Below, one piece after another: positions 42,551 through 62,945 of a DNA stretch of 64,000 bases; the first letter of the stretch is position 1, and each line of letters begins with the position of its first letter. The stretch covers positions 6,562,213 to 6,626,212 of the forward strand of contig OZ234493.1 of NCBI GenBank assembly GCA_965153455.1. The letters are read 5' to 3'. This stretch comes from Sphagnum compactum (Eukaryota). The notes under the pieces are model-generated. The model made no database searches and had not been told where the DNA came from. It saw only the letters and a program-made list of their open reading frames with translations. The position numbers and the translations under genes were made by a program.

Positions 42551-45500
42551 CCTTTCTGGGTCCATTCACAATGAGGTTACTGAAAAAAGGAAAAAGGATT
42601 CTAGGACTTTTGTAGAACTACTTTTTACAAATAACATTTACATGAAACAAATTCTAGTGAAAAAAATTGAATAATCCAATATAAGATAATTCATGTGGTG
42701 GTGGTGGTGACTTTTCACATGCATACATAATTGTGCATGAATATTTTGGTTTATAAACAAAAAAATAGAAAATGAAAAAATGGGATTCTAAAATCAATTA
42801 AACATGTTTTTTTACATTATTATTTCCTGCACATGTGACGTGCATCTAAAGCAATTTCTTTTTGAACCTAATGGATATAAAAAAACATCCAAATTATTTA
42901 ATAAAGGAATTGAAAATTTCAAGACCTTGAAATTTTCATGTGATTTGTTTTTATCAAATTAACATAATGAACATGTAGCTGGATAAAGGAACCATGTTCT
43001 TTTTATATAAAAAATTTGAAATCAATTGCATCATTTTATGCATTCCTTTGCATTCCCTTAACAAAAAATTGTAATATGAACACTTGATTCCTTTTGAGTC
43101 AAAGGACTCAAAAAAAGTTCTATACAACATCCAATTTGATTGTGGGATGTTTTTTATAATTTATTTTTTCAAAACTCCAATTGTAGGAACACAAAAATAC
43201 ACCATTGTTGTAATATATTAGACACTACGAAAATCTAAAATTGTTCATTAAGTCCTTTTTTAGTTAGACACTCATTTTTGGTACCCCAATTGTGAATGGA
43301 CCTTTCTTGGAATTTTTTTTATTATAAAGTTTGGCAAGGTTTCATCATTAGTCAATTATGGATCCCACCAAAAATATAAGTATCACTAAATAGTTCATTG
43401 GCAAGTTTTGGGTACTAAGTCACTAAAATAAACAAGCCGGTGACCAAACATTAATTGTCTCAATCACCTCCCTCTCATTCAATAGGCCTCCTTTCCACCT
43501 ACACTTCAAAAACAAAATATACACCATTACACCTACACTTTAAATGTACACCACTAGAAGCGCAATCATTGTCATTTAAATTGCTCAAAATGGGCCAAAG
43601 ATGAAGAAGATACACCCCTTCAAAGTTGGGGGGTAAAAATTGATATAAAAGAATGGATCGTACACATGGCAACCCAAGACGGTTTGTTTAATCACCTAAA
43701 ACTGAACAATCACTTGGGCATTAATGAACTAAATGCTACCTACTCCCATATTCAACTAGATGCAGATTTGAATGATCAACATTTTCAAAGAAAATGTTCA
43801 CTTTTGAACATAGGCCTCAAATCACATGCAACATAGGGCCTTTCCATCGCCAATAATGGGTAAACAATGGTTGATTCACCAAATTCAATGCTCCTATTCC
43901 AAATGTTTGTGTTTTCACCAAGTTCCACGCATCTACTTCTTAATTATGTTGTGAACTCCTGATTCCATCCTCCTTTGAGCCAAGGTTGCTATGAGTCACG
44001 GCATCTGTGTGTCTGTCACAATGTGACAAATGCATCTCAACACAAACGCACCTCTGCATCGCATTAGTATAGGGCCTAGTGATGACATTCTTCATTTTGC
44101 ACATTAAAATTCTTTAAAATTCTTCATTTAGCACCTTGTCATAACATTCTTTACCCGCGAATGTTTACCAAATTACACTGGTTGATCTATAAAATTCTTT
44201 AAAATTCTTGCTTCTTTGGGCTTCCATAACATTCTCGCACCAAGAATGTCATAACTATGGTATAGGGTCAGCCTAGGTCAACTTAGGATCTACCTAAGTT
44301 AAAGGGACTCTCAAGCTACCTGGACAGGCTTATGGGCAATCGAAACTAGGCCCATTTCAGTTTCCATAAAGCTTACAACAATGGAAAAATATCGGTTGCT
44401 ATAGGCTTGGTGACCGAAAAATTTTCGTTGCCACATGATTGGTGATAAAATGCTTTCGATTGCCACAAGCTTTTGTTATTGTTGAATACATTAATTATAT
44501 TAATCAAGCCTATTGCTTTTGTGTATAATGTTTCATTGATGGAAGGAAGACGGAACGTGTGAAGTCCATGGTATTTGATGCCAGAGGATAAACCAAGGAA
44601 GGTGGAATGTAAGTTTTGCGACAATGTTATTTTGTATTGCAAGGATAGAATGCTCTTCCACTTGGACTATCGATATGATAACAATGGGCAAGCTTGAGTT
44701 GCAACGTGTTCAAAGGCACATCCATGGATGAAGACACTATTTGCCCAATTTGGTGGACTTGTCCTTCCACCACTAAACGACATGGAAGTACTAGCCCATA
44801 TCTTGGATGGGCGAATAGAAGATGTGGCCATGGAAACGCTGAATCCTTCAATGGAAAAATAATCTACTTCAATGTCTCAAGTGGAAGGTGCTTGAAATTT
44901 CACCCCCCCTACAAACAACATAAAGGGTCCTAAAAAACCCACAAATAACACCACTCAAACTTTTCGACAGGTTTCATTACTTGAGGGATTGAATTCAGCC
45001 AAAAAACAAGATTTGGACAAGAAATGTGCAAATTTCTTTTATGAGGCGAACATCCCCTTTAGTGTTGTGCAACAACCAGCATTCATAGAAGCTATGAAAG
45101 CAACCTTCGAATCTCAAACCTATTACTAACCCCTATCACACCATGGATTGCGCACAAATTTGTTAAAGCAATTCAAAGTGGATGTGTCTAAATAAGTAAT
45201 TGAGAGGACACAAAATTCAATTCACAAATATGGAGCAACCATTTGTTTTGATGGTTGGGACATCGTTACATGACGTCCATTATTGAATGTAGTGCTTACT
45301 TGTCCAAGTGGCGATGTATTCATAAGTTCCATTGACACAACTGGGGAGCAAAAGAATGCTCATTACATACGTAATGCATTGGGTCGAAACATTGAAACCA
45401 GTGGAATCGACAACATTATACAAATTTGTACAGAGAATGTTTCGAGCATGATAAATGCAACTGACCTTCTAATCCATCATTTTCCAAGTCTTTATTTTCA

Positions 45501-46234
45501 ATGTTATGTTGCTCATTATCTGGACTTGCTATTGGAAGATTGGGAAAAACAACATGGGCGAAACAAATTGTGAAAAAATGTGAAAGTTGATGTTTCTTTA
45601 ATATGACAACACCATGTGCCACTAGCCACCTTTCGTTATTATGAAACCAACTTAATGCTACTAAACCCCACTAAAACATGGTTTGCAACCAATTTTTTAA
45701 TGGTTGAAACGTTGTTCAAGCTTAGACCAGCCATTGAACAAACTATTGTTGATCCTAATTGGACTATTTTTGTCAACTCATTACATGGCAGTTGTCGTTA
45801 GAAATTGCTCACCAAGGCAAAAGTTGTTTGAGCCAACATAAGGAGGGATGAATTTTGGGATACTTGTGCTAACTTTGTACACATGGTGGAACCGGTTTTA
45901 GTGTCATTGAAGGCATTTGATGGCAAACAACCTTGCATGGGGAGGTTGTGGCTTATCATGTAAACATTGGAGTGGCATGTTGTATCCTTACGAAATCCTC
46001 TGTTTACATTGCCATCAAACCTTGTAGATTTGATTGAAGATCAATTTTACTAGAAGTGGAAGATGTTGATAACTAACTTACATTATGCAAGGGCTTTTTT
46101 CAATCCATACTTGTTGGGTGGAGCTCACCTATATACAAGGAGGCCTTAAACAGAGTTTTGCGAAAAATAGTTTGTACCCCGACCACCTATGCCCTAGTTA
46201 GCTTTAAAAGATTTTACAGATTTTGTGAAAAGTC

Positions 46235-46547
46235 TGTTGAGAATTCAAGCTCAACTAGTTAGGTTTCTTTAGTTACTAGAGTAAGAAAGTAATTAGGTTA
46301 CTTTCACAAGGTTGAACTACGTTCTTTACTTATTTTAGTTTGGTTATTTGTGGTGTGGTCTTGTAGTTAAATACCTTGGTGTTGATGGTTTGGCTCTATT
46401 TTCTTCATTATACAAGTTTGTGTATTTCTTGTGACAAGAACCTTGGAGGGTTCTTGATGTTGTGTTTTGTGTTGTGAGCATTATGTTGTAGTTTCCTTTC
46501 AATAAAGATTTATGTTTGCACTTGAGTAGATCTCCTATTTGTTAACA
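46235..46547 (+). repeat. 5' LTR
   Basis: TGTTGAGAATTC...TTGTTAACA; contains AATAAA at 46501. Confidence 0.98.
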
Positions 46548-46559
46548 TGGTATCAGAGC
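46548..46559 (+). promoter_or_regulatory. Primer-binding site for tRNA-iMet
   Basis: TGGTATCAGAGC immediately after the 5' LTR. Confidence 0.97.
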
Positions 46560-47660
46560 TTAGGTTGTTTGGTGAGAAAGTTGAAAGAGATCTAGAGCTA
46601 GAAAGTCTCTAGAACTAGAGCTTGAGAGTCTCTAGTAATATCATAGGAGTTTGTCAAGTGCAAAAGAGAAACGGGGAAAGGAAAGAATGTGAAGAGAAAG
46701 AAAAGAAAAGAAAAAAGGTGAGAGGATATCAACATATCAAAGTTGTGGAAGTCAGATCTTTAAAGCTAGATCTAGAGCTACTGTGAAAAGATCTTGGAGT
46801 GAAACTTGGAGAGGTTGTAGAAGACTATAGGACGCTTCTATTCTCAAATTTTCAAAAAAAAAGGATATGTTTTGTGAGAGTTATGAGCTTTTGAAAACTC
46901 TGTGCCAGATCTGGTTTTTTGGTCATATCTCCTTTGTTTGAGCTTTTTTGGATCTGCAGCTTTGGGATATTATAGATCATATAGGAATATATGTGTGAGA
47001 GAAATTTCATGTCATTTGAATCTATATTGAGAGAGATCCAAGCATCTGAAGTTTCAGTCTCAGTTTTGAAGTCAATTTCTTTTGAAAGTGATATCTCTTT
47101 GTTGTCATCATCAATAGAGCTGAAATTTTGAGCAGATATAGAAGACATATATCTTATGTGTCTCCCAAAATCTCAAGGATTTTGGAGTTGTTGAGAGCGA
47201 GTTGTAAGTCATTTTGTGTTCAGGTCCCAGTTTGAGGTGACTTCAAGGAAGTAGCAAGATCTCTCAATTTATGAAGTTAAATGAGCTGAAATTTTGAGAG
47301 AAGGTAGTAGACATAGTGTTCTATGTTTCACCAAAATTTTAAATCGATCCAAGGTCATATGTGTGTGAAGTAGCTTTGCAAAGTTGCTGTGACAGAAGTT
47401 TGTTTTGAGAAGACACCAAAGCAAAGTTTTGAAGTGGAGCAAATACAACTTGGGAGAACTTGAAGGAAGGAGTTTGAAGATTGGGAAGCGCAAATACATT
47501 ATCAAGACCTTCGTACAAAAGTGTGGTATGTAATCATGTACTTAATACCATACGAAATATTATTCGAGGTACGTACCTATACGTAAAACCTATGTATAGT
47601 ATAGAATTTCGTATAATACTCAAGACATACATACATATGCAAGGTCTATCTTGTTCAGCC

Positions 47661-47720
47661 TTAACCCTAACCCTAATCCTAGAAACCTAAGGAAGGAAAA
47701 CCCTAACCCTAACCCTAGAA
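47661..47720. repeat. Telomere-like (AACCCT)/telo-box cluster in the copia leader
   Basis: TTAACCCTAACCCTAATCCTAG...AAAACCCTAACCCTAACCCTAG, ~60-120 bp upstream of the gag ATG. Confidence 0.7.
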
Positions 47721-47783
47721 ATCCAAGGAAGGAATTAAAATCATTTTGAAACCCCAAAAAGACATTGAGAGTTGCCTTGAGAG

Positions 47784-50700
47784 ATGGCAGATAATCTTTC
47801 TCAAATTGCAATTGAGAAATTGGACAAGAACAATTTTCAAGTGTGGAAATTTAGGATTATGAATTTCTTGATGGGGAAAGGTTATTGGGAATTCATAACT
47901 GGTGATGAGACAGAACCTCCTCTCCTAGAAAACCCCACACAACAACAAATTCAAGCCAATAAAAGTTGGCATGAAAAAGCAAGGAAAGTCTTGTATTGGC
48001 TTTCTGTGAGTGTGTCTGATTCCATGATTGTGCATATTCAAGATGCACAATCACCCAAGCAAGCTTGGGATACATTGGTGAAAATGTATAGCACCAATAC
48101 ACAAGCTCGTAAAATGCAGCTCAAACAAGAGTTGCATAATCTATAGAAAAACAAGATGAACATCAGTGACTATTCTACAAAGGTGAAAAACCTTGCAGAT
48201 GCTCTTGCATCTATAAGAGCCCCTTTAGATGATGAAGATCTAGTGGCCGTGACCTTGAATGGACTTGGAAAAAACTATAGTCAGTTTTGTACCTCAATTG
48301 CAGTTCGAGAAACATTTCCCGATTTCCAAGACCTAATAACCCTCCTTATAAGTGAAGAAATGAGAATTGTTGGTACCTCATCCAATGGAGGATCACAAGA
48401 GAGTGCCTTCTACTCAAATTCTAATAGAGGTAGAGGTAGAGGTGGTAAAACTTCATTTCGAGGTCGACACGGAAGCTTGCATGGTGGACATCATCAACAT
48501 GAAGGTCAATTTCATGGAGGTGGACGAGGAAGCTTTAAAGGAAGAGGAAGTCGTGGAGGTCGCGGTGGAAGTCATCGAGGTCAACAACCAAATAGCGACC
48601 CATCGAGGTTACTACTGCGGGAAACCTGGGCACATGGCAAAGAACTGTTATCAAAGGGAGCATGATGCACGAAATGGAAAACTGCAACAAGGGAATTATG
48701 CATCAACTAGCAATCAAGGTGACGAACAACTGTTTGTGATGCAGCACATGGCAAATTCAATGATAGGAGGTGTATCAGATAACAATGTCTGGTATGTGGA
48801 TTCTGGAGCTTCAAACCACATGACTAGCCATGGAGAATGGTTTAGAGACACAAGGGATTTGAAGACACCAGGGTTTGTGGAAACTGGTGATGACACTAGA
48901 CACCCCATCACACAAATTGGCAAGGTGCCATTGTCCATGCAAAATGGGCAAACAAAATACCTGAAAGATGTACTTCATGTTCCAACCATAACAAAAAATT
49001 TGGTCTCCGTAGGCCAGATGGTGGAACAAGGTTTACAGGTGACCCAAATGGATGTTTTGTGGAAGACATGAAGAACCAAGGCAAATTGATTACAAAAGGG
49101 GAAAAGAATGGACGAATGTTCACCTTGGATGTGAACATGCCTGAGGTGAATTCCATGTTATTCACACATGGAAAAGGAGCTGGAGACATTGGAATTTGGC
49201 ACAAGCGGGTTGGCCATGTTAATCTCCAACGTCTTAAGCTGATGGAGAAACAAAATCTTGTTGGAGGTCTTCCCAAATTTGGAACAGAAGAGGTGATGTC
49301 AGAAGTTTGTGAAGCATGTCAATTGGGGAAGCAAGCTAGGCATCCATTTCCAGCTCAAACAACTCATGTAAGTTCCAAACCTTTGGAAATGATCCACTCA
49401 GATGTGTGGACCACGAAGACAGAATCCATTGGAGGATGCAAGTACTACGTGAGTTTCATTGATGACCACACAAGGAAGGTGTGGGTCTATTTCATGAAAC
49501 ACAAAGGTGAAGTGTTTCAGCATTTTTTGAACTTCAAGGCAATGGTAGAGAAGGAGAAGGGTGTGAGCATCAAATGCCTAAGGTCTGATGGAGGGGGAGA
49601 ATATTTTTCAAATGAATTCAGTGAGTACTTGAAGGAGCATGGAATTCAAAGGAAGTACTCATGTAGTTACTCCCCACAACAGAATGGAGTTGCTAAAAGG
49701 AAGAACAGGCACATTGTAGAAATAGCACGTGCCATGTTGAATGAAAAGAACTTGCCAAATTACTTTTGGGCTGAAGCGGTAGCAACAGCAGTCTACATCA
49801 TGAATCGAACACCCACAGCGGCAGTTCATGGCATGACACCTGAAGAAAAATTCACAGGCAAGAAACCCGATGTTTCACACCTCAGAGTGTTTGGTTACAT
49901 TGCATACGTGCATGTTCCTGATGAGAAGAGATCAAAACTAGACCCAAAAGCTGAGAAATGTATCTTCATTGGATACTCCTCAGAACAAAAGGGATATAGA
50001 TGTTTTAGCCCTTCCACTCGGAAGTTGCAAGTGAGTACAGATGTTGTGTTTGATGAGATGGTTAGTTGGTACTCACCATTGAAGGTAGCAGAAGATGAAG
50101 AAGCTAGAAATGGTGATGTTTCATCAAATGTGGAACAAGAATCACAATTAATTAGTGGACCACAAGAGTCTTCAATTAGTGGGTCCAGTAGCATTCCATG
50201 GAAAGGAAGATTAAGATCTTCAAACATTGTACATGGTAGTTCACAAACATCATCTAGAAATTCTCATGTAGATGGTGAATCAAGTGAGTCAGAAAAGAGT
50301 GAGGGTGAAGAATCAAGAATCACCTCAATTACTACTCCTGGAGCTCGGATGGTCAAGAAAGCTTTGAAAACACCTGACAACAACATTGGAGTACGAAGAT
50401 CCACACGAGTCAAGTACCCTATACAAAGACTCACATATGATGGCTTTGTAGCTCATCATTACGCATACATGGTGAGAGTTATACAAGAGGTTGAACCCAC
50501 TTGTTTTGAACAAGCGGTTGGAAATCCTAAGTGGGACAATGCCATGGATGAAGAGATGGCGGCTTTGGATGCGAATGCTACTTGGGAATTGGTAGCTTTA
50601 CCAAAGGACAAGAAAGCAATTGGGTGCAAATGGGTGTACAAAGTCAAGCACAATGCAGATGGATCTTTGAGCAGATACAAAGCAAGATTGGTTGCCAAAG

Positions 50701-52064
50701 GTTATGCCCAAACGTATGGCATAGACTATGAAGAGACCTATAGTCCAGTTGCCAAAATGACAACTGTAAGAGCAATCATTGCTATGGCAGCAACAAAAGG
50801 ATGGTCTTTACATCAAATGGATGTAAAGAATGCTTTTCTTCATGGAGATTTACAGGAAGAAGTGTACATGGAACAACCACCAGGTTATGTGGACCAAACA
50901 CATCCTAATTTGGTTTGTAGGTTGAAGAAAGCTTTGTATGGCTTGAAGCAAGCACCTAGAGCTTAGTCAGACAAGATAGGTCAGTATCTTGTCACAAGTG
51001 GATTTCAAACATCCAATGCAGATTTTTCACTATATGTGAAAAAGACAGATCATGGGATTGTAGTCATAGTCATCTATGTTGATGACTTGATTATCACAGG
51101 AGATAGTGATGCAGACATCTCTGATTTGAAGAAGCTTTTGAAGCAAAAGTTTGAGATGAAGGATTTGGGAGAGTTGCGTTATTTCCTCGGCATTGAGGTA
51201 ATCCATTCCCCGAAAGGGATATGGTTACTACAAAGGCAATATGCCTTGAACAAATTGTCCGAATATGGGATAACGGGTCGTAAACCCATTTCAATTCCAT
51301 TGGAGCAAAATGTGAAGTTGAGTGTAGATGAAGGAGACCTCGTGGAGGATACCACTATGTACAAACGCATAGTGGGGAGTTTGATTTACATGACCATCAC
51401 AAGGCCAGATTTGAGTTATGCAGTTGGAGTGGTGAGTCAATTCATGCAAACACCATGAAAGCCACATTTGGATGCAATGAGGCGCATACTGAGGTACATA
51501 AAACATACCTTGCAATGTGGAATTTTTTATGAAGCCAAGAGCTAGTTACAAGTACATGGATACACGGATGCTAATTGGGCTGGCAATGTTTCAGATAGAA
51601 AATCAACTAGTGGTTTCATGTTTTCTTTTGGAAGTGGTGCTGTTAGTTGGAGCAGTAAGAAACAACCAACAGTTGCATTATCAAGCACGGAGGCAGAATA
51701 CAGAGGTGCAGCAATTGCTGCATGTGAAGTAGTTTGGTTACAAAAACTACTCTCAGATTTGGGACAGTTAGTGGATGCTCCTGTTGTCATCTATTGTGAT
51801 AACATTAGTAGCATACTACTTGCTAACAACCCGGTCTATCATGCTAGGACAAAGCACATTGAGGTGCACTACCACTTTATTAGAGAAAAAGTTCTAACAA
51901 AAGAAATTGACCTTATTCATGTCAGTACTGAAGATCAGGTTGCTGACATTTTCACAAAGGCTTTAGGTACAGACAAGCTAAAGAAGTTTCGAAAAATGCT
52001 TGGTGTACTAGAAGTGGATTTGAGCTTGAGGGGGAGTGTTGAGAATTCAAGCTCAACTAGTTAG
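47784..52064 (+). pseudogene. copia gag-pol polyprotein, disrupted
   Basis: Gag KLDKNNFQVWK; knuckle CGKPGHMAKNC; protease WYVDSGASNHM; integrase [44 protein letters not shown]; RNase H YTDANWAG, YCDN, ADIFTK. Stops at 48144, 50964, 51456 and 51543; frameshifts near 48600 and 49043. Confidence 0.97.
52028..52036 (+). promoter_or_regulatory. Polypurine tract
   Basis: GAGGGGGAG abutting the 3' LTR. Confidence 0.93.
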
Positions 52065-52349
52065 GTTTCTTTAGTTACTAGAGTAAGAAAGTAATTAGGT
52101 TACTTTCACAAGGTTGAATTACGTTCTTTACTTATTTTAGTTTGGTTATTTATGGTGTGGTCTTGTAGTTAAATACCTTGGTGTTGATGGTTTGGCTCTC
52201 TTTTCTTCATTACACAAGTTTGTGTATTTCTTGTGACAAGAACCTTGGAGGGTTCTTGATGTTGTGTTTTGTGTTGTGAGCATTATGTTGTAGTTTCCTT
52301 TCAATAAAGATTTATGTTTGCACTTGAGTAGATCTCCTATTTGTTAACA
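52037..52349 (+). repeat. 3' LTR
   Basis: Copy of 46235-46547 with 4 substitutions. Confidence 0.98.
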
Positions 52350-53589
52350 AAGTCGAGGTCCATTTTCTGACACCCCCCTAGTGAAGGACCTAGACTTGTT
52401 CCCACACGAGTGGTGAGATTGATTGGAGCTAGTGGATGCACATTTGCACCCATCACCCATTGCATTTTGGTGCAAGTGTGTCTCGCATCATCATGCGAGT
52501 GGAATTGGAGTTCATATTCATTTGTCCATAACAAAGTGTGAAATCAATTAACATCGAGTCGAACGGAAGACCTGGTGTACATATACACTTAATAGCAAGC
52601 TCTTGTGAGAACAACTTGGCACCAACCCCACAGCATGGTATGAGAAAAATATGGTGTTTGAAGATTCAATGTCCAATGTTGATGAAATTGTAAATGAAAA
52701 CAATTCATCAGACAAAAACCCCACAACGTCAAATAAGTGGGATGAGGATGAAATCGAATATGACCCCTTTGAATTCCCTCATGATGATGAGATCCATTTT
52801 CAAGATTGTTGTCTGATCTGATGATTTGGCATGTTCAAGGGTCTAGCAATGGCAATGCAAATCCAAACATGCCATTCTTAGACAATGATGTTCAAGTGTC
52901 TGATGCACCCCCCGCATGTTGTACATGCTATAATAGCCCTAAGTCAAGACACGTCCATGCAATCAATGAGTTCCATGGAAGTGGACCCTTCAATTAGTGC
53001 AAACACACCATTAGCTTAAATCATCATTCCAGAGCCGGATGCACAATAGACACTAAATAACACTTTAGACATACAAATGGACCCACTCATCAATCTTCCA
53101 AATATTGTAGTCAATGACATTGGGGATATTACATTAAAACTAGGTGTGGGCCCGCGTATGATCACTAACATAGGTGCACCCCAAGTTGCGGATCCAAGTC
53201 CTTCAAGTTTTAAAACTTCAAGACCAAAGAAGTTAGCAGAAGGTGATTCAAATTCTAATCACACACCAATCAACTAGTACTTATGGCGTCCAAGACCCCC
53301 GATACCCAAAGTGCCAATGGGTCAAGACTAATCATTATGGCAGCTTCCATGAATCATCTTCCGCCAACTATTGAAAACTTGTCCACATGTTGAGTTACCT
53401 AAGGGAAAAGGCCTATTGTTCAAACAACAATTATTTTTGTTGGTGAACATAATTATGAACGACCACACACTGATGATGGCATTTTCAGTATTGAGGGACA
53501 GCGCCCCACCAAACAAATCATGACAAAATGTTAAGGTTGAAAATATCATCAGAACCTTGTGTGGGATAGACACTTCAGAAGTAAAGGAG

Positions 53590-54900
53590 TGTGAGGCGAC
53601 TTTTTATCCCTCTACTCCCGGCTCTACAAGGTGACTATACTTGAAAGCATAAATGCTATCGGTGAAGGACAAATGCAAGTGTATTTCTAGATGTTAGATT
53701 GCGTTTGTAGTTGAGATCAAGTAGCTTGCGTCCTATGCATTATTTACGATTAGAACTAATAAATATATTTCCAAGCTCAAACATTCCAAATCTTAGAATT
53801 TTATGTCAAATTGTCATTCATTTAAACTAATTTTTAAGGACTCAACATTATGTTCAACTTACCTGCAGACCACTAGCCACTTGAAATATTGATTCTAACA
53901 CATAAGTTATCCAAATCCAGCTTGCCTTAGCTCTTTAGAAAGTTAACTACAAGATGCACCTTGCTACCAAATCCTAAGCTCTGCAACTAAACTAGTTAAA
54001 AGTTATGCCACAAAACCCGAAAGGGTTTTACGAAGGTGGTAAATTCAACTTGGTTGCAGACCACTAGTCACTTGAAATATTGTTTCTAACACATAAGTTA
54101 TTCAAATCTTTGAAAACTTGTTCATACAACTTTTCTTAAGAAAAGAAGAATGATTAGTTTTAGTAGATGGTAGAAAGAGGGAGAATAGATTGGATGATAA
54201 TAGTACCTTTCAAAGGGATGGAAATGAATAGGGGTAATTTTAGGAGCTTGAAATTTTAGAGGTATTTCACAAGACCTCTCGGGTTTTGTAGCATAACTTT
54301 TTCTTAATCTAGATGTAGAACTTGACAGTTGGTAGGCAAGTGCACATTATAGATAACTTTTCAATGAACCAATGCAAACTAAATTTGAATAGAGTATGTG
54401 ATGGTAACAATGTTTTAAATGATTAGAGGTCCATTGTCAAGTTGAGCTTTTTGCTTTCGTGAAACCCCCTTGGGTTTTGTGGCACAACTTTTTATTGATC
54501 TAGGTGCAGAGCTTGAGATTTGGTAAGCAAGTGTGCTTTATAGCTAACTCCAATGAACTAATGTAAGCTAGATTTGGATAACATATGTGAGGGGAATAAT
54601 GTTTTGAGTGACTAGAGGTCTGCTATCAAGTTAAACATATTGTCAAGTCCTTAGAAGTTAGTTTAGCTGGGTGACAATTTAACATAAAATTCTAAGATTT
54701 GGAAAGTTTGAACTTAGGAAATATATCTATCAATTCCAAATCATAAAGATGCATAGGAGGTAAACTATTTGTTTTTAACTACAAATGTAATTTAATATCT
54801 AGAGATACACTTTACATTTTTCCTTCACCAATAACATATGTACCTTCGAGTATAATCACCTCATAAAACTAGGAGTAGAGGGACAGAAAGTCACTTCATA
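53590..54900. mobile_element. Foldback element: ~520-bp forward arm and ~800-bp reverse arm of one repeat family joined head-to-head
   Basis: TGTGAGGCGACTTTTTATCCCTCTACTCC at the left end vs GGAGTAGAGGGACAGAAAGTCACTTCATA at the right; similarity runs the length of the left arm; junction ~54105; no TSD visible. Confidence 0.85.
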
Positions 54901-56089
54901 ACCACTCATATGTGGCGATTAAATTTGATCGCCATTCAATATTATTGATTAAATTCGGTTGTTATTGGATGGCGGTTATGAATTTCGATCGTTGTAGATG
55001 GATTTGCTAACATTTTCAGTTGCCATCTAGGAACCATTAGATGGCGACCGAATTTGTCTTAGCCGGCAGATGACAATCAATTTTTGAAATAAGTATTTTC
55101 AAGGTTTATGAGTTTTAAAATGCAATCCATGATTCATTTTTTAGCACCTATGTTCTCATTTGGGTTTTGTGTTTTTGGTTGCTCCCTTATAATGATTACA
55201 TGGAACCTTGGGGGTGAGTTGAGGTGATCAAGTCCCGAGTAAAGGGCTATCTTTTTCGCATGTTGCGAATGTTTTAGACCACATTAAACCTTGACTTTTT
55301 AAGACTTGAAAAGACTTTTGGTTTTTCATCATCCAAAATTTGAAGGATGTTATAAAATGGATATTCGAGGAGACAACCATCGGGTAGACCATTGTCGAGT
55401 GTTCAATTTGACCAAAACCCCCAAAAAACAAATTATCCCACACATCATTTGGGACTTACCCCCCAGACCTTTGAGCAGCCCATCTTCAACCATGCACAAA
55501 TGAAAGGCTATAGAAATGTTTGATGAGGAGAACACTTCATCGACATAAACTCGAAATCATCAAAAGCCTGAAGACAATCATCCTAAAAGAATCGCCACAC
55601 GATAATTCCAAGAAAGTATCATGACATTTTTTACAGAGCACACAATGGCATATCTCAACAATGTTTTTGTGAACAAGCAAGGAAGTAGCTTGAAGAAGTA
55701 TAATCAGGTCATGGAGCATAAGTTTTTGGCAAAACTAGACAAATCCTCGCAATACACCAAGTTTTGGATTTTCAAAGAATTTCTGGAATCGTTTGAATGC
55801 AAAATTTCGAATTTAGCCACAAACTTGTTGCAATGGTTTAATGTCCTTTATCCACAAAAGGACAAGGTGCACTAGACCATGGAGGTGGTGAACTTGTGGG
55901 AGAAAATTTCATGTTGGACCAAATTTTTGAAAAATTGGTCGAAAAAAAAAGGTGAGGTTTACACCATGGATGGAAAAAGGCACTTAAAACCTTCTAGCCC
56001 AAATTGGAAGCCATGGTGTGTTATGAATTCTAAGCATAACAAATGTGCTCCCATTGTTGAGTAGAGATAATCAAGGTGGTTATGGTGTG

Positions 56090-56529
56090 GGGTGCAGTCA
56101 TGTTAATAGGAGTTAAAAGCAATCATAACCACAACTTAATTATGTGTTTTTTACACCAAATTTTTTATAAAAAATTCTAACTTGAAAATACATTAAATTT
56201 TTTACACATTATCAATCTAATGTCTTATTCTAGAAATCTCCAAAATATGAAATTATTTCATTAACATTTGGACCTTCAAAAGTAATGTAAAAAGACTTGT
56301 AACCACTGTTATTAAATAGTAAAAGGACTTGTAAATGGACTTGGAAAACTTTGAAAATGACATATTTTTTACAAAATTTTAATACAAACCTTCACAAAAT
56401 AATACAAAGAATTTTTTGAAGATTTTTTCAGATTTTGTTGAAGATTTTTTCAAAAATATTCCAAGAATATTCCCTAAAAAGCAGTCACCTAAGGGAACAC
56501 TAGTGGCTCCTATTAGCCCGTTTGCACCT
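56090..56529. mobile_element. GGG-terminated MITE (440 bp) inserted in the kinase Gly loop
   Basis: TIR GGGTGCAGTCATGTTAATAGGAG / CTCCTATTAGCCCGTTTGCACCT; 4-bp TSD TGTG (56086-56089 / 56530-56533); excision restores GGYGVV in frame. Confidence 0.88.
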
Positions 56530-56953
56530 TGTGGTGTGCACGGTGCGAATTGAAAGATTGGATCACATCCCAAGCACAATTGAATTGATAGGAAAAACAT
56601 CGAAGACATATGACAAGCAAGAAACATGTAAGCAACAATCAATGGAAACTTTGGCATGCCCGTGCAAACATCCAGGTGTCATCAAATTCCTTGCCATCCA
56701 CACAGAAACCACGGAAACATACACATTGTGGTGGAATGGGGGAACTTTTCGAAAAATGTTGGATTACAACACGAAGTATTCCCCCATTACTAATAATCAT
56801 ACCTTATTGTGGCAAGGGGGGCTAGATATGGAACGGTGAACAGAACTTGTCACCTTTAGGCAAAATCGTGTGAAGTTTGCATGGGCATTCATAAACCTTA
56901 TGAATGTAGTACATCATTGTGAATTTTTGCACAACGACTTGTCTAAGGATAAT

Positions 56954-59900
56954 GCAACTTAATGAACCAACACTAGTTAGCAACATGATGGACTAACAAT
57001 AACACCAACAACATAGGGGGTAAATGGTGAAGGAGGGTATTTGGTACCGAGAGGTGTATAACAATGTGATGGACTACCAACTCACCACTTGCAAGGTGAT
57101 GGCAATGGGGGTAATACCTCACCAAAACACATGTAATGAACATGCAACGAAAGTAACAACCAACAATGCAAATGAACAACAACATCAACACATGGGGGAA
57201 TCGTTCATGTGGGTATTTGGGAGCGTGACAAACACTAGCAATGTGATGAATTAACACCAATAATGCAATAAACTAACATTTATACTAGCGATGCCATAAA
57301 CCAATAACAACATCAACAACACCATAAATGCCAATTTTGAATTAAAATTTTGGCTTGACCAATGTGTGAAAAACAACTGCAAAGCTTGCTTTTATGGCCT
57401 ACCAAACTATACTCTTATAAACTGCATTCTTTTTATCAAATTCACTTTGTGTTCAAAATTACTCAACCATGTTACAGCATTCCATCAACTTTGATGATTT
57501 GGTTTTAACTTGGCATAAAAGGCAAAGTCATTCCTTATTTAACATCTAAAGGTTGAATCAACTTGATATGATGTGAGTTGGTGGATGGTTTCATGCGAAC
57601 CCTACATGCAACTACTACAAGGTCCAATGACATCCACCCAAGTCAAGATCTCAAGAAGCTTTCTTCATAATGGGCAATGTGGGCACATGATTGAAGTCTC
57701 CTACATTTCTTACAAAATAAATAATGACAACATGTGAAGATTGTAACCTATTCAAGGCTTGCCCAACTACCTATCTAAGAGGCCCAAAGGTGTATTTTGG
57801 GAAAAACTTGTACACTACAAGCTACGATTGTTTTGGACCAAAGAGTGGAACTCTATGTGAACTACCTAACATGCCATTTTGATACACTCAACATATTTTT
57901 AATTCATATTTGGTCATATGGCAATGCAAGCATCAGATCTAGCAAGTGCTATCATCCTTTTATGTTCTTCTTGTTGTAGGAAATGGGTAAATATGGGGTC
58001 TTCTTAAGGAGGTAATCCTTCAAATGATCTATTTACTAGTATAACATGTAAATTTGGGTCAAGATTGGGATTTTTACCCTGGCCCATGTGGGTGACTTGT
58101 GCTAAATTTGAGCACCACACTACCAATGATGATCCATTATTTTATCTCTTTCTTATGTTTTCATATGGTTTTCAATAATTCATCATTATTTGTGTCAATG
58201 ATAAATTTAATTTAAATTACTATACATTTCATGGACATGAAAAGACACATTTTAATTTTTTTTCATGTCCATGCTGGTGGATAGGGAAAAAAGTGAGGTA
58301 GTTATGAAATGGAACTAGTTTTTAAAAAAGGTGGGAGATAGTTATTAAAAAAATTAATAAGAAATGGTAGTTATTAAGAAAAAAAATGAAATAATTAAGT
58401 TTGAAAATGAGGTAGCTATTTTTTTAAATTGTTTTTGGAATGATCTATGGACAACCATACGAAGGATTCCAAAAAATCCCCCATATACCAATTTTGATTA
58501 ATTGTTACTAGAATTACTTATCACTGGAATTTGTGTAGAGATGTTTAGATAGCCAAGTCTTGTAAATCAATGTCCTCATGGATACAACAACCATGCCATG
58601 AAATGATGATTTTATCTAAGAAGGACTTATTCACTAATGAAAGCAAAATATTTTAACTAGCATAATTTGATGAATGATGTACTTTGAAACATTTTGTGAT
58701 GTAGTTGAAATGGTGATCATCCATAAGACACTTTTGCCTAATTTGGTTACACACTATATATGAAAATAAAAAAAGCCCAAACCCTTCTATATTTTAGCTA
58801 CCTATTGGAACTTATCACGAAAATCTTTTCCTTCAAGTTCTATTGAATTTGGGCCATATTTTTCATTAAAATTTTGTTGTATAGGTCAAGTTGAAAATTT
58901 GCAAAATTTCATTTAAAAAAAAAACCATTGTAGTTAGCTCGTCTTGGTATGATAGATGGTAAAGACTAGGCTTATTTAGGTATGTAACTAAAAATTAGGA
59001 ATAAGCATGTATGTGTGTGAAATGAAGAAATTTCAACAAATGTGGATGATGGAAATTGAAGTGATGAAATTTGGGTTTGAGAAATACCAATGCTGTGTCT
59101 TTTGATCTCTATGTTTTCTTGTTCATTTGTTGATCATGAACAAGTCTGAAGGTCCAATTGCAAGCAAAGCATGATGGAATTGCAATAAGGCTTCAATGCA
59201 ATGAAGGTGAACATTACGAGTGTGGAGTTTTGTGGGCATGTTTCTTTTCAATTTTTGGCAATATAAATATGTGTAAAGGTTGCAGATATTTGCTTATTTA
59301 TGAGATGCACCTTAAAGCTCGGTGAGTGATTGAGGATAATGGAAAATAAGAACAAGAACTTGGAGATGAGGAGGCTAGTTCCTTTTGGGTGAAAAAGAGC
59401 TAAGTGATTTGTGTGTTATGCATAAGAATAGTAAAGCTTTTACTTTCTAGAAGGATGTTGTCTATGTTGTTTTCTTGTTTTGTGTGAAAATTTGTGATGG
59501 CTTAATACAATTGCTATGACTTTTTTTCTATTGTGTATAGTGATCCTTAGTGGCCATTGTGAATTCTATAACCACCATAATGTATAAATCTAATACCAAG
59601 GAGATGATGGTAAAAAATAGGAATTTTGGGCCCAAATGAGTTTTCACTTTAGTGGCAATGGGTGAAAGCACACTAAGCCCCCCCCAAAATTGTATTCACA
59701 CATATAATCTTTCTGCAATTAGATTTTTTTAATAATGTATCGACATCACATCTTGGATTATTTTTGTTTGTTTTAAGTATATTTGATTAGCTTTAAACTT
59801 CATCTAATCAGTTATTTTGAAAAATTCAACAAACATTGAAGAATTTGAACATATGGAGTATATTCATGACCGAAAAAAACTTGTCACAATGTTTGAGATT

Positions 59901-61289
59901 TTGAATATATACTTCAAAAATAAGGTTGTGGATGGAATTCTTGGGTGAATTATTTTACGGTGTATGATATTGATATACATCAATTAAATCTAGGAGAGTT
60001 TAGAAATTAAAAAATTTTGGATGAAATTCCATTCAAAAAATGTTTTGTTTTGCATTTGTTTAATAATGAATGAATAATAATATTTTTTTAAAGAAAAAAT
60101 CACTACCATGTCAAAGAGTAGGAGATTTTATAGATGAGCATTGCATTATTTTTTCAATTTTATTTTGTTTGGTAATGTTTCATGAATCATAAACATAAGG
60201 CCCTATGGTTGTAAGTTATATATTCTATATACATTGATTTTATCCAATCCTCCTCATCTAACTGTTGGATCGAAATTAATTTTAGATCAAAATGAACTTT
60301 GAGTTCAAAAATGTTGTTGTGCAAATTTTTAAGTTCTTTTGCTTTTATTTAGGACAACCAAAGGATGCTATCAAGATTTTAGCTTATTGCATATTATACT
60401 ATTTGTTATACATCACCTTTTTAGAACAAAAATGGCTCACCTTTAGTGTGTTTTCACCTCAATGGTAATACCACATTCTAGCAACATCAACTCACCTTAT
60501 TATTTATTACTTGAAAATATTGTGAAATGGTGATTGTTGACAATGAAACCCAATGTGGTGGGTTGGGATACATGAGCAAGGGTTTGGAAAATGTTGGAGG
60601 ATCCAATAATGAAATGCGATATGTTGTAAAAATTGGAATGAAATCTCTTCATAGTGAATTTGGTGAAGCTTTCAATGTTTGTTGTTACTAATTTTGTCAT
60701 GGAATGTTGGGTTCACCAACATGGGAATTAGAAAATTGAAATCTTTATTGTTTATAATTGTTGGTGGTGAATTAGACATTGAAGGAATGTAGGAAATTAA
60801 GGGAGGCTCAAAAAAGGATTGATATGATTGATCTATTTTGAATTAGTAATAAGACCATTGTTTGATGGACACAAAGTACATGGAAATAAAATGTTGGATA
60901 AAGTGTGGTTTTTCATTTATTGCAAGGATGTTTTTTTGGAATGTTAATTAATGCAATATTGTACACCATTAGATTCACAAAATTCATAATCTTTTGAGGT
61001 TTTTTAGTTAAACCATCTTAGTTTAATACATTACTACAAAATGTGTGGACAAACCATTACAGCCAACCACCGAATTTGACTTTGGGTGGTCTTCACATGA
61101 CAAAAATCATTCACGACTTTTTTGAGTGGGCAAATCCTACAAAAACGAACCAACATTAACATTAACAACACAAAGTACCAACAACACCATAAATGCGATG
61201 AACCAATAATAACACCAACAATGCAAACAACCGACAACAACACCAACAATGTAACAGACCAACAATACAATGAACCAACAACATCAACC
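56954..61289. mobile_element. ~4.3-kb composite insertion in the kinase catalytic loop, with AAC/CAA-rich degenerate repeats at both ends
   Basis: Interrupts HNDLSKDN|IMLHF; AACAACACCAAC-rich tracts at ~56954-57330 and ~61140-61289; no TIR or TSD resolved. Confidence 0.65.
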
Positions 61290-62239
61290 ATTATGTTGCA
61301 TTTTCTAGCAAACAAACCAGATGTTGTGTACATAGGCGTGTGCAAATAGAATGAAGTCAGGCGCTTGTAAGAGGTGATGCCATCATTGTATGGCTTTACA
61401 AAAGAACAAGGTGCCACCAATGCAAAACAAATGCATTGGTGGGTTTCCCCAGAATTGTTTTTTGTTTACAACGAATCAGGAATTGCAAATTCCTTGACAA
61501 ATGGCCAAGCAACATGGTACAGCTTTGAGGTTTGAAGCATATTTGGTGGGTAGGTTGGCAAATGTCATATGGGGTGATGATTGGGATGCAAAATATTTTT
61601 TGGACAATTCAACCAAGATGTCATTTGGGAAACTGATCCATGACATGTATGACCCAAATCCGAAGGCACAAAGAACTATTCAACACATTGTGTGCACATT
61701 GATGGGGCCTCCATACAATTAGACTGCATCTGAAGAGTGTTATCAAAGACAACCATAAACAATTTGTAGTTACTAGTTTTACATGATGTGGTGTAATTTG
61801 CATGATCTTTCAAAATGACATGTTTTGGATTTGTGGATTTTATAAAACCCAATTTTTGATCGCTGTAGGAGTGGCAACCAAAATCCATTTTTGGTCACCA
61901 ATCATAATGGGGATACCCCAAGTATGACCAAGGATTTTCCTGCATCCATCTTGACGAACGTGTCAAGATAAGACGTCGATGTGACGCTTAACACAAAATG
62001 GGCACATCATGTTTGTTTTGACAACCTTGTTTTGAGCTTGAATTTTTCCTCTTTGTCTCCTTTCAAAAGGTTTAAAGAGCTCTTGATCACCACCTTGATT
62101 GTGTTTTTAATTTGATCATCTTTCTCACGTTATGAGTTCTTGATCTTTGGGCAATATGTGTTGTGATCTGAACCTTTAGTGGTTTAGTGTTATGAGTTTA
62201 TTAATATCTTTAGTAATCTTGTGATGGTGGTAGTTGTGT

Positions 62240-62945
62240 GTTGTGCACTTTTGAAATTAAAACATTTTTCTCCTTTGTATTAGGTGTTGTTTTTTCTGGT
62301 TTCAATGTTCATTTCTCCTCTCTCTTAATTATTAATTTCTTTGCTCTTAATTCTTCTTTCTTAGCTGCTATTATTTTTTATGCCGCTTTTAACACTTCTC
62401 TTTCCTCTTTCTCCTCTCTTTTCACTCATGACGTCTCTTTCTCCTCTTTCTCAATTAGTGTTTTCTCCACTTTCAACACTTCTATTTTGTCTTTCTCACA
62501 TGTTGTTTTTCAAGCTCTTGACACCTTTCTCCTCTCTCATAATTACTAGTGTTGGTCCTTCCTTAAGTTGGACACCTTTTTTTCCACTATTGTTATTGGT
62601 CCCCTTTCCAAGTTCAATGCCTTTTTCTCCTCTCTCAGTTTTTGTCGTTGGTCCTTTCCTTTCTTTGAACTATTATTGGTCCTCTTTCTTGGAATTCAAT
62701 GCCTCTCTTTCCTCTCTCACAGTTGTTACCATAGATCCTTTTTCCTTTCTTAACACCTCTCCTTCCTCTTTCTCAGCTTCTAGTATTGGTTTTCTTAATC
62801 TTCTTTCTCAATTGTTATTATTAGTCCTCTTTCTTCTCTTGATCGACCTTTCTCAACTGTTGTTGCTAATATTTTATCCTCTTTCAATCCTCTCTCATCT
62901 ACTGATGTTGGTCCTTTTTTTTATCTCTTTCAAACCTTTAGTCAA
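62240..62945. repeat. Pyrimidine-rich low-complexity repeat
   Basis: Repeated TTTCTCCTCTCTCA(A/G)TT(G/A)TT units. Confidence 0.65.

What the first reader, a model, noticed from the sequence alone, without database searches (positions are those of the whole stretch)
55357..61722. Reconstructable divergent kinase with an HNDLSxxN catalytic loop and a ~240-codon unknown N-terminal region
Seen: all main kinase subdomains appear in order once two insertions are removed exactly at GGYGV|V and SKDN|IML. The loop has Ser where typical Ser/Thr kinases have Lys (HRDLK), is non-RD, and the DFG position is decayed (TGC AAA TAG AAT, explicable from C-D-W-G largely by G>A changes). Upstream frames (MDIRGDNHR..., MAYLNNVF...LLQWFNVLYP, MEVVNLWEK) suggest an uncharacterised N-terminal domain. 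Inference: a lineage-restricted, TE-borne kinase family unlike receptor-like kinases. The HxDxSxxN loop recalls FunK1-type kinases, but I cannot establish that relationship.
Basis: partly seen in the sequence, partly recalled or inferred. Interest (0 to 1): 0.75.

Follow-up and report, generated by a model that had tools for sequence, protein, structure and literature searches.

The report
Dead kinase gene inside hAT transposon
The region is a mutation-riddled, twice-interrupted copy of an unusual protein-kinase gene that travels as cargo inside a cut-and-paste (hAT) DNA transposon of a moss-like plant genome, and the kinase belongs to an unnamed family with intact members elsewhere.

Summary
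After removing two insertions private to this copy (about 56088-56531 and 56944-61289), the frames give a complete kinase domain. 275 other copies in metagenome contigs are collinear across both junctions.

The gene is a pseudogene, by my reading of the frames: at least 11 in-frame stops, 3 frameshifts, and the DWG (DFG-equivalent) Asp lost.

It is the 3'-terminal gene of a hAT DNA transposon, window 43982-62029:
- TIRs CA(A/G)GGTTG...
- 8-bp target-site duplication, CTTTGAGC / TTTTGAGC.
- A DUF659 transposase remnant (70.5 bits).
- A nested young copia element.
- Full-length copies elsewhere (9.6-11.5 kb) also carry a RING-H2 gene.

No copy among 80 loci is intact, and no polyA RNA read lay on the kinase parts.

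A profile of the moss copies finds intact 456-647 aa proteins (E down to 8e-91) with the same layout: a roughly 200-aa helical N-terminal domain plus the kinase. They have an HNDLSPxN loop, and K, E, D, N and DWG are conserved. 10 of 15 pass Pfam's Pkinase threshold; FunK1 does not (15 bits against 24).

So [quoted passage not shown] is supported. "FunK1-like" and "lineage-restricted" are not. Whether the kinase served the transposon or was merely captured remains open.

The parts
43974..43981 (.). left target-site duplication CTTTGAGC
   Evidence: It matches TTTTGAGC at 62030-62037, 7 of 8 bases, the one difference a C/T transition.
43982..62029 (+). whole hAT-type DNA transposon copy (18,048 bp including nested insertions)
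   Evidence: The 5' end CAAGGTTGC... and the 3' end ...GACAACCTTG match the termini of other copies. The copy is collinear with L009/L007/L039.
45274..45570 (+). transposase remnant, DUF659 domain
   Evidence: Pfam PF04937, E 1.6e-19, 70.5 bits against a cutoff of 34.7.
46235..52336 (+). nested Ty1/copia LTR retrotransposon that splits the transposase region
   Evidence: 300-bp LTRs 99% identical. Long ORFs that read like copia gag, integrase and reverse transcriptase; this is my reading of the translations, with no family scan run on them. The hAT homology resumes at 52340.
52340..53589 (+). continuation of the transposase-region homology
   Evidence: Aligns to L007 2256-3480 and L039 2372-3605.
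53590..54910 (.). filler that replaces about 5.2 kb of the full-length element (including the RING-H2 gene)
   Evidence: The window lacks L009 3745-8925. This stretch matches only L020/L021 elsewhere.
55343..56087 (+). kinase gene: probable start ATG, N-terminal helical-domain region and G-loop (GGYGV), read across 3 frames
   Evidence: BLASTP of moss ORF P0022 to intact P0025 covers this region; hhalign gives E 2e-71.
56088..56531 (.). roughly 440-bp MITE-like insertion private to this copy
   Evidence: Absent from other copies. Flanked by an imperfect ~10-bp duplication GTGG(G/T)GTGCA, with an inverted TAATAGGAG near both ends.
56532..56943 (+). kinase N-lobe to catalytic loop (beta3 Lys in ELIGK, alphaC Glu in METLA, HNDLSKDN), with one in-frame TGA
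56944..61289 (.). 4.3-kb insertion of unknown class, private to this copy
   Evidence: Other copies join 56952 to 61289 directly, and DNA contigs of run X1 skip it. CAACAA-rich direct repeats at both ends.
61290..61758 (+). kinase C-lobe: IMLHF, decayed DWG (CK*N), APE (VSPELF), alphaF to alphaI, C-terminal PPYN...CYQRQP. Two in-frame stops, one frameshift near 61500-61535, and one more stop at 61720.
61856..61870 (.). site of a roughly 600-700-bp deletion relative to other copies
   Evidence: for example L009 11086-11761 has no counterpart in the window.
61960..62029 (+). 3' subterminal region and TIR
   Evidence: The homology ends sharply here in all 17 copies shown, whose downstream flanks I read as unrelated to one another.
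62030..62037 (.). right target-site duplication TTTTGAGC

Best explanation
**Shown.** The region is a dead copy of an intronless gene of about 550 codons that sits as the last gene, next to the 3' terminal inverted repeat, of a hAT-superfamily cut-and-paste DNA transposon. The gene encodes a helical N-terminal domain followed by a deeply divergent, non-RD eukaryotic protein kinase. Its motifs are G-loop GGYGVV, beta3 AGK, alphaC E, catalytic loop HNDLS(K/P)xN, DWG for DFG, APE, and DPxxR.

**Inferred history.** The gene was multiplied passively, because each transposition or gap-repair event of the element copied its cargo. The copies then decayed neutrally, mainly by C>T and G>A changes typical of methylated repeats. 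This copy was further broken by a MITE-like insertion, a 4.3-kb insertion, a 3' deletion and an internal 5-kb deletion. A young copia element landed in its transposase.

**Inferred function.** The ancestral protein was probably an active phosphotransferase, since intact relatives keep all catalytic residues except the loop Lys. I judge it most likely that a whole host-type gene was captured and then carried as cargo. Whether it, together with the RING-H2 gene of the same element, ever acted for the transposon's benefit is not shown.
For: **Family and collinearity**
- 330 stretches matched the search patterns and 275 were tblastn-confirmed; 80 loci were fetched.
- All are collinear across both insertion sites.

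**Element structure**
- The kinase unit ends at a sharply defined terminus ...GACAACCTTG in all 17 copies shown.
- The 5' terminus is (T/C)A(G/A)GGTTGTCA.
- 8-bp TSDs: perfect in L072 (GTGGTGGG); 7 of 8 in L068; 6 of 8 in L070; 5 of 8 in L009 and L031, with every mismatch a transition. The window has 7 of 8.
- DUF659 in the window (70.5 bits) and in other copies (up to 107.6 bits). DUF659 is described as a hAT transposase domain in PMC6710886 (passages read).
- The window is collinear with the full-length elements L009 (11,468 bp), L007 and L039.

**Kinase identity**
- Profile A2 gives 499 hits at E<=1e-3 and 66 at E<=1e-30, among them intact proteins of 456-647 aa.
- 10 of 15 of those pass Pfam's Pkinase gathering score, and all 15 have E<=2e-6.
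- K249, E266, H361-N362-D363, N368 and D387-W388 are at least 90% conserved in 28 sequences.
- The AF2 model of P0025 has pLDDT 83.6 and matches kinase structures at Foldseek probability 1.0.

**Decay**
- No ORF longer than 240 aa in 80 loci.
- Substitutions are biased to transitions, 127 against 30, and CpG o/e is 0.49.
- Singleton substitutions are even over codon positions, 77/71/64.

**Expression**
- The polyA RNA run X22 gave depth 0 in all bins over 54900-57289 and 61353-62040, reading about 12% of the run at >=85% likeness. DNA of the same species label covers these parts.
Against: - The hAT dimerisation domain and the DDE core were not detected in any fragment. The superfamily call therefore rests on TSD length, TIRs and DUF659.
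- The loci were found by their kinase, so I cannot say whether kinase-less relatives of this hAT exist, or whether a host parent gene exists.
- Substitutions shared by at least 3 of 36 copies show a weak 3>1>2 codon-position pattern (110/86/127, p=0.019). This hints at purifying selection while the family diversified, which fits an accessory gene better than inert cargo.
- Only one RNA run was laid, and only about 12% of it was read.
- The window fragments and the moss ORFs do not themselves reach Pfam's kinase threshold. Profiles A1 and A2 found nothing significant in the PDB. Kinase membership is therefore transitive, through the intact relatives.
Confidence: 0.85

Rival explanations
1. The kinase, with the RING-H2 protein, is a true accessory gene of this transposon lineage. 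It would be kept by selection because it helps the element, for example by phosphorylating the transposase or host silencing and repair factors. The intact relatives elsewhere would then also be transposon genes.
For: - The whole ORF, with its own N-terminal domain and no introns, is carried. It is retained in full-length copies and in deletion derivatives of 5.2-5.4 kb.
- The RING ORF gave tblastn hits in 25 loci, several of them near-duplicate assemblies.
- Shared substitutions favour codon position 3.
- Intact relatives are numerous and mutually divergent, 25-56% identical, as multi-copy element genes would be.
Against: - No intact or expressed copy was seen in this genome's family.
- The selection signal is weak (p=0.019) and could come from shared ancestry or recurrent mutation.
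- The genomic context of the intact relatives could not be fetched.
- The loci were chosen by kinase match, so its retention in them is partly circular.
Confidence: 0.3
2. It is a member or offshoot of the fungal FunK1 kinase family, as the HxDxSxxN loop suggested.
For: One intact relative (P0025) gives a weak Pkinase_fungal match over the catalytic loop only (E 0.0093, 15.2 bits).
Against: - The score is below Pfam's cutoff of 24.1.
- 14 of 15 intact relatives, 9 of 9 moss ORFs and 8 of 8 window fragments give no such hit.
- The generic Pkinase model scores far higher, up to 57 bits.
- A Ser or Thr at that loop position also occurs in RIO, Bud32 and APH-type kinases. This last point is recalled, not tested here.
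Confidence: 0.03
3. The two interruptions are introns, and this locus is the intron-bearing parent gene of processed copies elsewhere.
For: The interruptions fall cleanly between codons.
Against: - The first interruption has a ~10-bp flanking duplication and inverted ends.
- The other copies lie inside TIR/TSD-bounded DNA transposons, which is the reverse of what processed retrocopies would show.
- This copy carries at least 11 stops and 3 frameshifts.
- No RNA read spliced or lay on the exons.
Confidence: 0.02
4. The kinase comes from an integrated giant-virus-like element rather than from a transposon.
For: Large DNA viruses encode divergent kinases, and mosses are reported to hold such insertions. 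Both points are recalled, not tested here.
Against: - A scan of IMG/VR with the intact-family patterns gave 25 pattern matches, none confirmed by tblastn.
- The element has hAT termini, 8-bp TSDs and DUF659.
Confidence: 0.03

Closest known systems
hAT transposons that captured and amplified a whole host gene (histone H3 in Pseudocercospora fijiensis; Dhillon et al. 2019, PMC6710886: abstract and passages read)
   Same: - An element of about 9.5 kb with short TIRs and an 8-bp TSD.
- DUF659 is detectable but the hAT dimerisation domain is not.
- A complete protein-coding gene is carried inside and multiplied to many copies.
- All copies are then inactivated by C>T-type mutation.
   Different: - The host here is a moss-like plant, not a fungus.
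- The decay looks like methyl-C deamination, not RIP.
- The cargo is a two-domain kinase plus a RING-H2 gene.
- No intact parent gene has been identified here.
Eukaryotic protein kinase superfamily (Pfam PF00069), non-RD kinases
   Same: - All Hanks subdomains appear in order.
- The beta3 Lys, alphaC Glu, catalytic Asp and Asn, metal-binding Asp and APE are present in intact relatives.
- The kinase fold is predicted with confidence.
   Different: - The catalytic loop is HNDLSPxN: Asn for Arg and Ser for the loop Lys.
- DWG replaces DFG.
- There is an invariant WWNG in the beta5/hinge region.
- The match to every solved kinase is weak (best E 4e-6 with the intact-family profile).
- The family has its own helical N-terminal domain of about 150 aa.
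FunK1 / Pkinase_fungal (PF17667)
   Same: It is a lineage-expanded divergent kinase family. A Ser at the loop position is recalled for FunK1 but was not checked here.
   Different: The family HMM was tested and its threshold is not met. FunK1 is not known to me to have this N-terminal domain.
Pack-MULE or Helitron type gene-fragment capture in plants
   Same: Host-like coding sequence carried and amplified by a DNA transposon.
   Different: - Here a complete ORF is carried, not fragments.
- It sits in an autonomous-type hAT next to a transposase gene.
- Its position and orientation are fixed at the 3' end.

Membership tests
Eukaryotic protein kinase (Pfam Pkinase PF00069) | HMM score at or above the gathering cutoff (31.7 bits) | tested here: inconclusive
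   - Window fragments: 0 of 8 hit.
- Moss ORFs: best 17.1 bits; 4 of 9 give sub-threshold hits.
- Intact relatives reached by the family profile (E 8e-91): 10 of 15 pass, best 57 bits.

Membership is therefore transitive.
Eukaryotic protein kinase (Pfam Pkinase PF00069) | Catalytic residues: beta3 Lys, alphaC Glu, catalytic-loop Asp and Asn, DFG Asp | tested here: met
   At least 90% conserved in 28 intact or near-intact relatives. The window copy keeps K (ELIGK), E (METLA), D and N (HNDLSKDN), but its DWG Asp is destroyed (CK*N).
Eukaryotic protein kinase (Pfam Pkinase PF00069) | Bilobal kinase fold | tested here: met
   The AF2 model of relative P0025 (pLDDT 83.6) matches FGFR2, RET, JAK3, KIT and ULK1 kinase domains: Foldseek E 1.7e-10, probability 1.0. 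This was not done on the window's own broken sequence.
FunK1 (Pfam Pkinase_fungal PF17667) | HMM score at or above the gathering cutoff (24.1 bits) | tested here: not met
   1 of 15 intact relatives at 15.2 bits (E 0.0093). 0 of 9 moss ORFs and 0 of 8 window fragments.
Plant receptor-like kinase / Pelle (IRAK) group | Closest similarity to RLK/IRAK kinases, plus an extracellular or transmembrane part | tested here: inconclusive
   - With the intact-family profile, the 60 best PDB hits are CaMKII, HRI, CDPK, B-Raf and FUS3. None is a plant RLK.
- Profile A1 weakly hit LIMK1 (E 0.075).
- No transmembrane or ectodomain family was found by Pfam.
- No dedicated RLK phylogeny was made.
hAT superfamily DNA transposon | 8-bp target-site duplication | tested here: met
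   Window 7 of 8. L072 8 of 8, L068 7 of 8, L070 6 of 8, L009 and L031 5 of 8, with all mismatches transitions.
hAT superfamily DNA transposon | Short terminal inverted repeats | tested here: met
   The 5' end (T/C)A(G/A)GGTTGTCA and the reverse complement of the 3' end CAAGGTTGTCAAAA are shared by many copies, whose flanks I read as unrelated to one another.
hAT superfamily DNA transposon | Transposase with hAT-associated domains (DUF659, Dimer_Tnp_hAT, BED) | tested here: inconclusive
   DUF659 is met (70.5 bits in the window; 107.6 bits in P0191). Dimer_Tnp_hAT and zf-BED were not detected in any of the decayed fragments scanned.
Transduplicated (captured) host gene | An intact parent gene outside the element in the same genome | not testable with these tools
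   No whole genome is held for this window.

The most novel reading that the evidence does not exclude
The moss copies are fossils of a widespread, so far unnamed class of transposon-encoded signalling genes. The class would be a two-domain protein, with a novel helical N-terminal domain plus an HNDLSPxN/DWG non-RD kinase, that hAT elements carry together with a RING-H2 E3 ligase as a functional module. The module would manipulate host chromatin silencing, DNA repair or the transposase itself. The intact 456-647 aa relatives found in other assemblies would be living, expressed versions of it.
Probability: 0.2. Interest if true: 0.7.

Novelty: new variant of a known kind. Interest (0 to 1): 0.45.

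Why it matters
Gene-carrying hAT elements are known, but I found no report of a DNA transposon that carries a complete protein kinase. Five full-text searches found none. A review of giant transposons has no occurrence of 'kinase' or 'hAT'.

If the kinase and RING pair served the element, it would be a new way for a cut-and-paste transposon to interfere with host signalling or silencing.

Independently of that, the work defines a distinct kinase family that existing models barely recognise:
- a conserved, structurally unmatched N-terminal domain;
- a catalytic loop that lacks the loop Lys;
- DWG in place of DFG.

Intact members of the family could be tested biochemically. For genome annotation, it explains why gene callers label fragments of this repeat 'serine/threonine protein kinase' in moss-associated metagenomes.

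Tried and rejected
- **Pfam on the eight window fragments:** no kinase hit.
- **The genome search 'own':** no genome is held.
- **PDB sequence search with moss profiles:** A1 gave only LIMK1 at E 0.075. A2 gave nothing at E<=0.1.
- **Search for an intact copy:** none among the 80 loci; the longest related ORF is 240 aa.
- **IMG/VR scan with the intact-family alignment:** 25 pattern matches, 0 confirmed.
- **Earlier findings of this scan:** nothing by place or by two sequences.
- **ESM Atlas with P0025:** generic kinase clusters only, no taxonomic lead.
- **N-terminal domain alone:**
  - Foldseek against the PDB: best E 0.38.
  - VIA-align wide: best Z 5.5, below the level usual for helical bundles. 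No fold assignment follows, and this does not show the fold is new.
  - Word-based protein search: itself plus one kinase-bearing relative.
- **Word-based search with a DUF659 fragment:** only 3 fragments of the same repeat.
- **hAT dimerisation and BED domains:** not found.
- **The look-up of sequencing runs:** no RNA holder listed.
- **Class of the 4.3-kb insertion:** no clear TIR, LTR or TSD.
- **Rejected readings:** introns, processed retrocopy, FunK1 membership and viral insertion. See the rival explanations.
Full report
**1. What is at the coordinates**

The window is plant-like DNA, 29-45% G+C. It holds long ORFs at about 48-52 kb that read like copia gag, integrase and reverse transcriptase. 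That is my reading of the translations; no family scan was run on them.

- QGGYGV (56063-56080)
- ...VVCTVRIERLDHIPSTIELIGK...METLACPCKHPGVIKFLAIH...YTLWWNGGTF...KFAWAFINLMNVVHHCEFLHNDLSKDN (to 56943)
- IMLHFLANKPDVVYIGVCK*NEV...MHWWVSPELFFVYN (from 61290)
- after a frameshift, ...AYLVGRLANVIWGDDWD...LIHDMYDPNPKAQRTIQHIVCTLMGPPYN*

On their own these fragments give no Pfam kinase hit.

**2. The reconstruction is right**

A word-based search with the 111-aa ORF found nine longer ORFs from other copies, at E 1e-44 to 2e-22. They read straight through both junctions: GGYGVVCKV, SKDNIMLHF, CDWGE.

A pattern scan of metagenome contigs matched 330 stretches, and 275 were confirmed by tblastn. I worked with the best 80 loci. 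BLASTN of the window against them shows homology running to window ~56090-56096 and resuming at ~56530, then running to ~56950 and resuming at ~61289. Both interruptions are therefore private to this copy.

- The first (about 56088-56531) has an imperfect ~10-bp flanking duplication GTGG(G/T)GTGCA and inverted TAATAGGAG motifs near both ends. It looks like a MITE.
- The second (56944-61289, 4.3 kb) has CAACAA-rich direct repeats at both ends and very high-copy internal segments, but no class could be assigned.
- The window also lacks 600-700 bp that other copies have after 61856.

**3. It is a pseudogene in a family of pseudogenes**

By my reading of the frames, the window copy has at least 11 in-frame stops and 3 frameshifts. 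The Asp of its DWG (DFG-equivalent) is lost.

Among the 80 loci the longest related ORF is 240 aa. The best copy, L007:10001-10981, keeps one frame but has 5 stops.

Against the family majority the window differs at 157 of 1774 sites. Of these, 61 are G>A and 32 are C>T; overall there are 127 transitions and 30 transversions. CpG o/e is 0.49. Many stops shared between copies sit where CGA would give TGA or CAA.

**4. The gene is cargo of a hAT transposon**

The kinase unit (window 54911-62029) is only the 3' part of a larger repeat. In L007, L009 and L039 another ~9 kb upstream is shared with 8-24 other loci, and homology stops sharply downstream.

Termini and target-site duplications:
- The 3' terminus is ...TTTTGACAACCTTG in all 17 copies shown, and I read their downstream flanks as unrelated to one another.
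- The 5' terminus is (T/C)A(G/A)GGTTGTCA.
- The two termini are inverted repeats of each other, and GGCCCATTTTG sits subterminally at both ends.
- Flanking 8-bp duplications: perfect in L072 (GTGGTGGG; element 9,870 bp); 7 of 8 in L068; 6 of 8 in L070; 5 of 8 in L009 (11,468 bp) and L031. Every mismatch is a transition.

In the window the element runs from 43982 (CAAGGTTGC...) to 62029 (...GACAACCTTG). It is flanked by CTTTGAGC and TTTTGAGC.

The window is collinear with L009:
- 44476-46234 = L009 1162-2920
- 52869-53589 = L009 3026-3745
- 54928-56096 = L009 8925-10106
- 56530-56947
- 61275-61856 = L009 10509-11086
- 61851-62032 = L009 11761-11935

Other features of the element:
- A young copia element (46235-52336, 300-bp LTRs 99% identical) splits the transposase region.
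- About 5.2 kb of the element's middle is missing in the window.
- The 5' part encodes DUF659: window 45274-45570, E 1.6e-19, 70.5 bits, and up to 107.6 bits in another copy.
- DUF659 is described as a hAT transposase domain in Dhillon et al. 2019 (PMC6710886; abstract and passages read).
- The hAT dimerisation and BED domains were not detected in the decayed fragments.
- Full-length copies also hold a RING-H2 ORF (L009:6976-7320, zf-RING_2 E 4e-7). It gave tblastn hits in 25 loci, several of them near-duplicate assemblies.
- Shorter TIR/TSD-bounded derivatives of 5.2-5.4 kb keep the kinase.

**5. What kind of kinase**

A profile of moss copies, with stops read as X (A2), was run against 1.84 billion representative proteins. 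It gave 499 hits at E<=1e-3 and 66 at E<=1e-30. Most are short fragments like the moss ORFs. Fifteen that I fetched are complete or near-complete proteins of 395-647 aa, and 14 of them are 456-647 aa.

These come from unnamed Logan, ENA and JGI contigs, mostly 1.7-2.8 kb long. All have the kinase at the C-terminus after an N-terminal region of about 200 aa.

- **Pfam:** 10 of 15 pass the Pkinase gathering score (best 57 bits), and all 15 have E<=2e-6. Pkinase_fungal (FunK1) appears once, at 15.2 bits against a cutoff of 24.1. APH appears mostly sub-threshold.
- **Conservation:** in 28 aligned relatives WWNG is invariant. The beta3 Lys (FAGK), alphaC Glu, H-N-D, the loop Asn and D-W of DWG are at least 90% conserved. 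The loop consensus is HNDLSPxN.
- **Solved structures:** the intact-family profile reaches solved kinases only weakly (CaMKII 4e-6, HRI, CDPK, B-Raf). The moss profiles do not reach them at all.
- **Fold:** an AF2 model of P0025 (pLDDT 83.6) has a kinase fold, with Foldseek probability 1.0 to FGFR2, RET, JAK3, KIT and ULK1.

This is a genuine but deeply divergent ePK family. It is non-RD, lacks the catalytic-loop Lys, and is probably still catalytic in intact members. That last point is an inference from residue conservation.

**6. The N-terminal region**

BLASTP of moss ORF P0022 against P0025 aligns 265 residues at 38% identity, E 4e-63. The alignment starts about 90 residues upstream of the G-loop. 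Profile-profile comparison gives E 2e-71 over P0025 69-392. The upstream frames 'MAYLNNVF...LLQWFNVLYP' and 'MEVVNLWEK' are therefore the right frames, and they are homologous to the relatives' N-terminal domain.

Stop-density over 12 non-redundant copies places the ORF start near L009 ~9350, which corresponds to window ~55343-55357. In most copies the opening reads MLSNGQSG...GTYPP...PLSGPPSTMHK.

Folded alone, the P0025 N-terminal region is a confident helical domain (pLDDT 87.5). It has no convincing PDB match: Foldseek best E 0.38, VIA best Z 5.5. Pfam finds nothing there.

**7. Activity and expression**

The locus is present letter for letter in DNA contigs of run X1 (organism A). DNA read depth over the kinase parts is roughly 5-40 times that of unique parts of the 4.3-kb insertion at >=85% likeness, so there are tens of copies.

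In one polyA RNA-seq run of the same species label, with about 12% of the run read, no read lay on any kinase part. RNA reads lay only on an unrelated high-copy segment at 58007-58484.

Among 36 non-redundant copies:
- Singleton substitutions are spread evenly over codon positions (77/71/64).
- Substitutions shared by at least 3 copies, outside CpG, run 110/86/127 (p=0.019).

The second pattern is a weak hint that the gene was under constraint while the family diversified.

**8. Interpretation**

*Shown:*
- a dead, twice-interrupted copy of a complete kinase gene;
- located inside a TIR/TSD-bounded hAT-type element;
- multiplied with that element;
- decayed by transition-biased mutation;
- part of a wider two-domain kinase family that has intact members.

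*Inferred:*
- ancestral catalytic activity;
- capture of a whole intronless gene. The closest precedent is the hAT element that captured histone H3 in Pseudocercospora (PMC6710886).

*Open:*
- whether the kinase and RING pair worked for the transposon (my odds about 0.3);
- which organisms hold the intact relatives, and in what genomic context.

*Literature:* five full-text searches and one review searched for 'kinase' and 'hAT' turned up no described kinase-carrying DNA transposon. Subscription journals and Repbase were not searchable.

**9. Verdict**

- Supported: TE-borne, divergent, with a novel N-terminal domain.
- Not supported: FunK1-like, lineage-restricted.

This locus is ordinary as a locus, being a fossil in a nest of transposons. 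The element type and the kinase family are a new variant of a known kind and worth a modest follow-up.

Noticed in passing
window 46235-52336: A young Ty1/copia LTR retrotransposon is nested in the hAT transposase region. Its 300-bp LTRs are 99% identical, and it has long ORFs (up to 688 aa) that read like copia gag, integrase, reverse transcriptase and RNase H; no family scan was run on them.
   Followed up: partly
window 58007-58484 and 59680-60396 (inside the 4.3-kb insertion): These are very high-copy repeat segments, with DNA read depth 40-70 per strand against about 1 in neighbouring unique DNA. The first is the only part of the laid stretch with polyA RNA reads. Its identity is unknown.
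   Followed up: no
window 56088-56531: A roughly 440-bp MITE-like element sits inside the kinase G-loop. Its flanking duplication of about 10 bp is a length more typical of Mutator-like elements than of hAT.
   Followed up: partly
L009:6976-7320 (and 24 further loci): A RING-H2 zinc-finger ORF is a third gene of the full-length hAT family. In some loci it lies on the opposite strand to the kinase, so either structural variants or adjacent inverted elements exist. The window copy has lost it.
   Followed up: partly
L009 ~11067-11600; window 61787-61856 for its start: Downstream of the kinase stop, 12 copies keep frames with few stops (for example FKNDMFWTCGFYKTQFCK...). This could be a small extra ORF or a conserved 3' region. 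It is mostly deleted in the window.
   Followed up: no
window 44080-44258: About 180 bp present in the window but absent from other copies sits just inside the 5' end of the hAT element, between two GTATAGGG repeats. It is probably another small insertion.
   Followed up: no
window 62217-62949 (+): A long open frame of low-complexity L/S/F/P-rich sequence lies in a strongly T-rich, skewed stretch right after the element (AT skew -0.33 at 62-64 kb). It is probably not coding.
   Followed up: no
L009 640-900, 4930-5335, 8770-9050, 11780: Clusters of a short motif (TGGTGACCAAAAATTT and its complement) recur at several internal sites of the element as well as near its ends. They may be subterminal transposase-binding repeats, or traces of a composite origin.
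   Followed up: no
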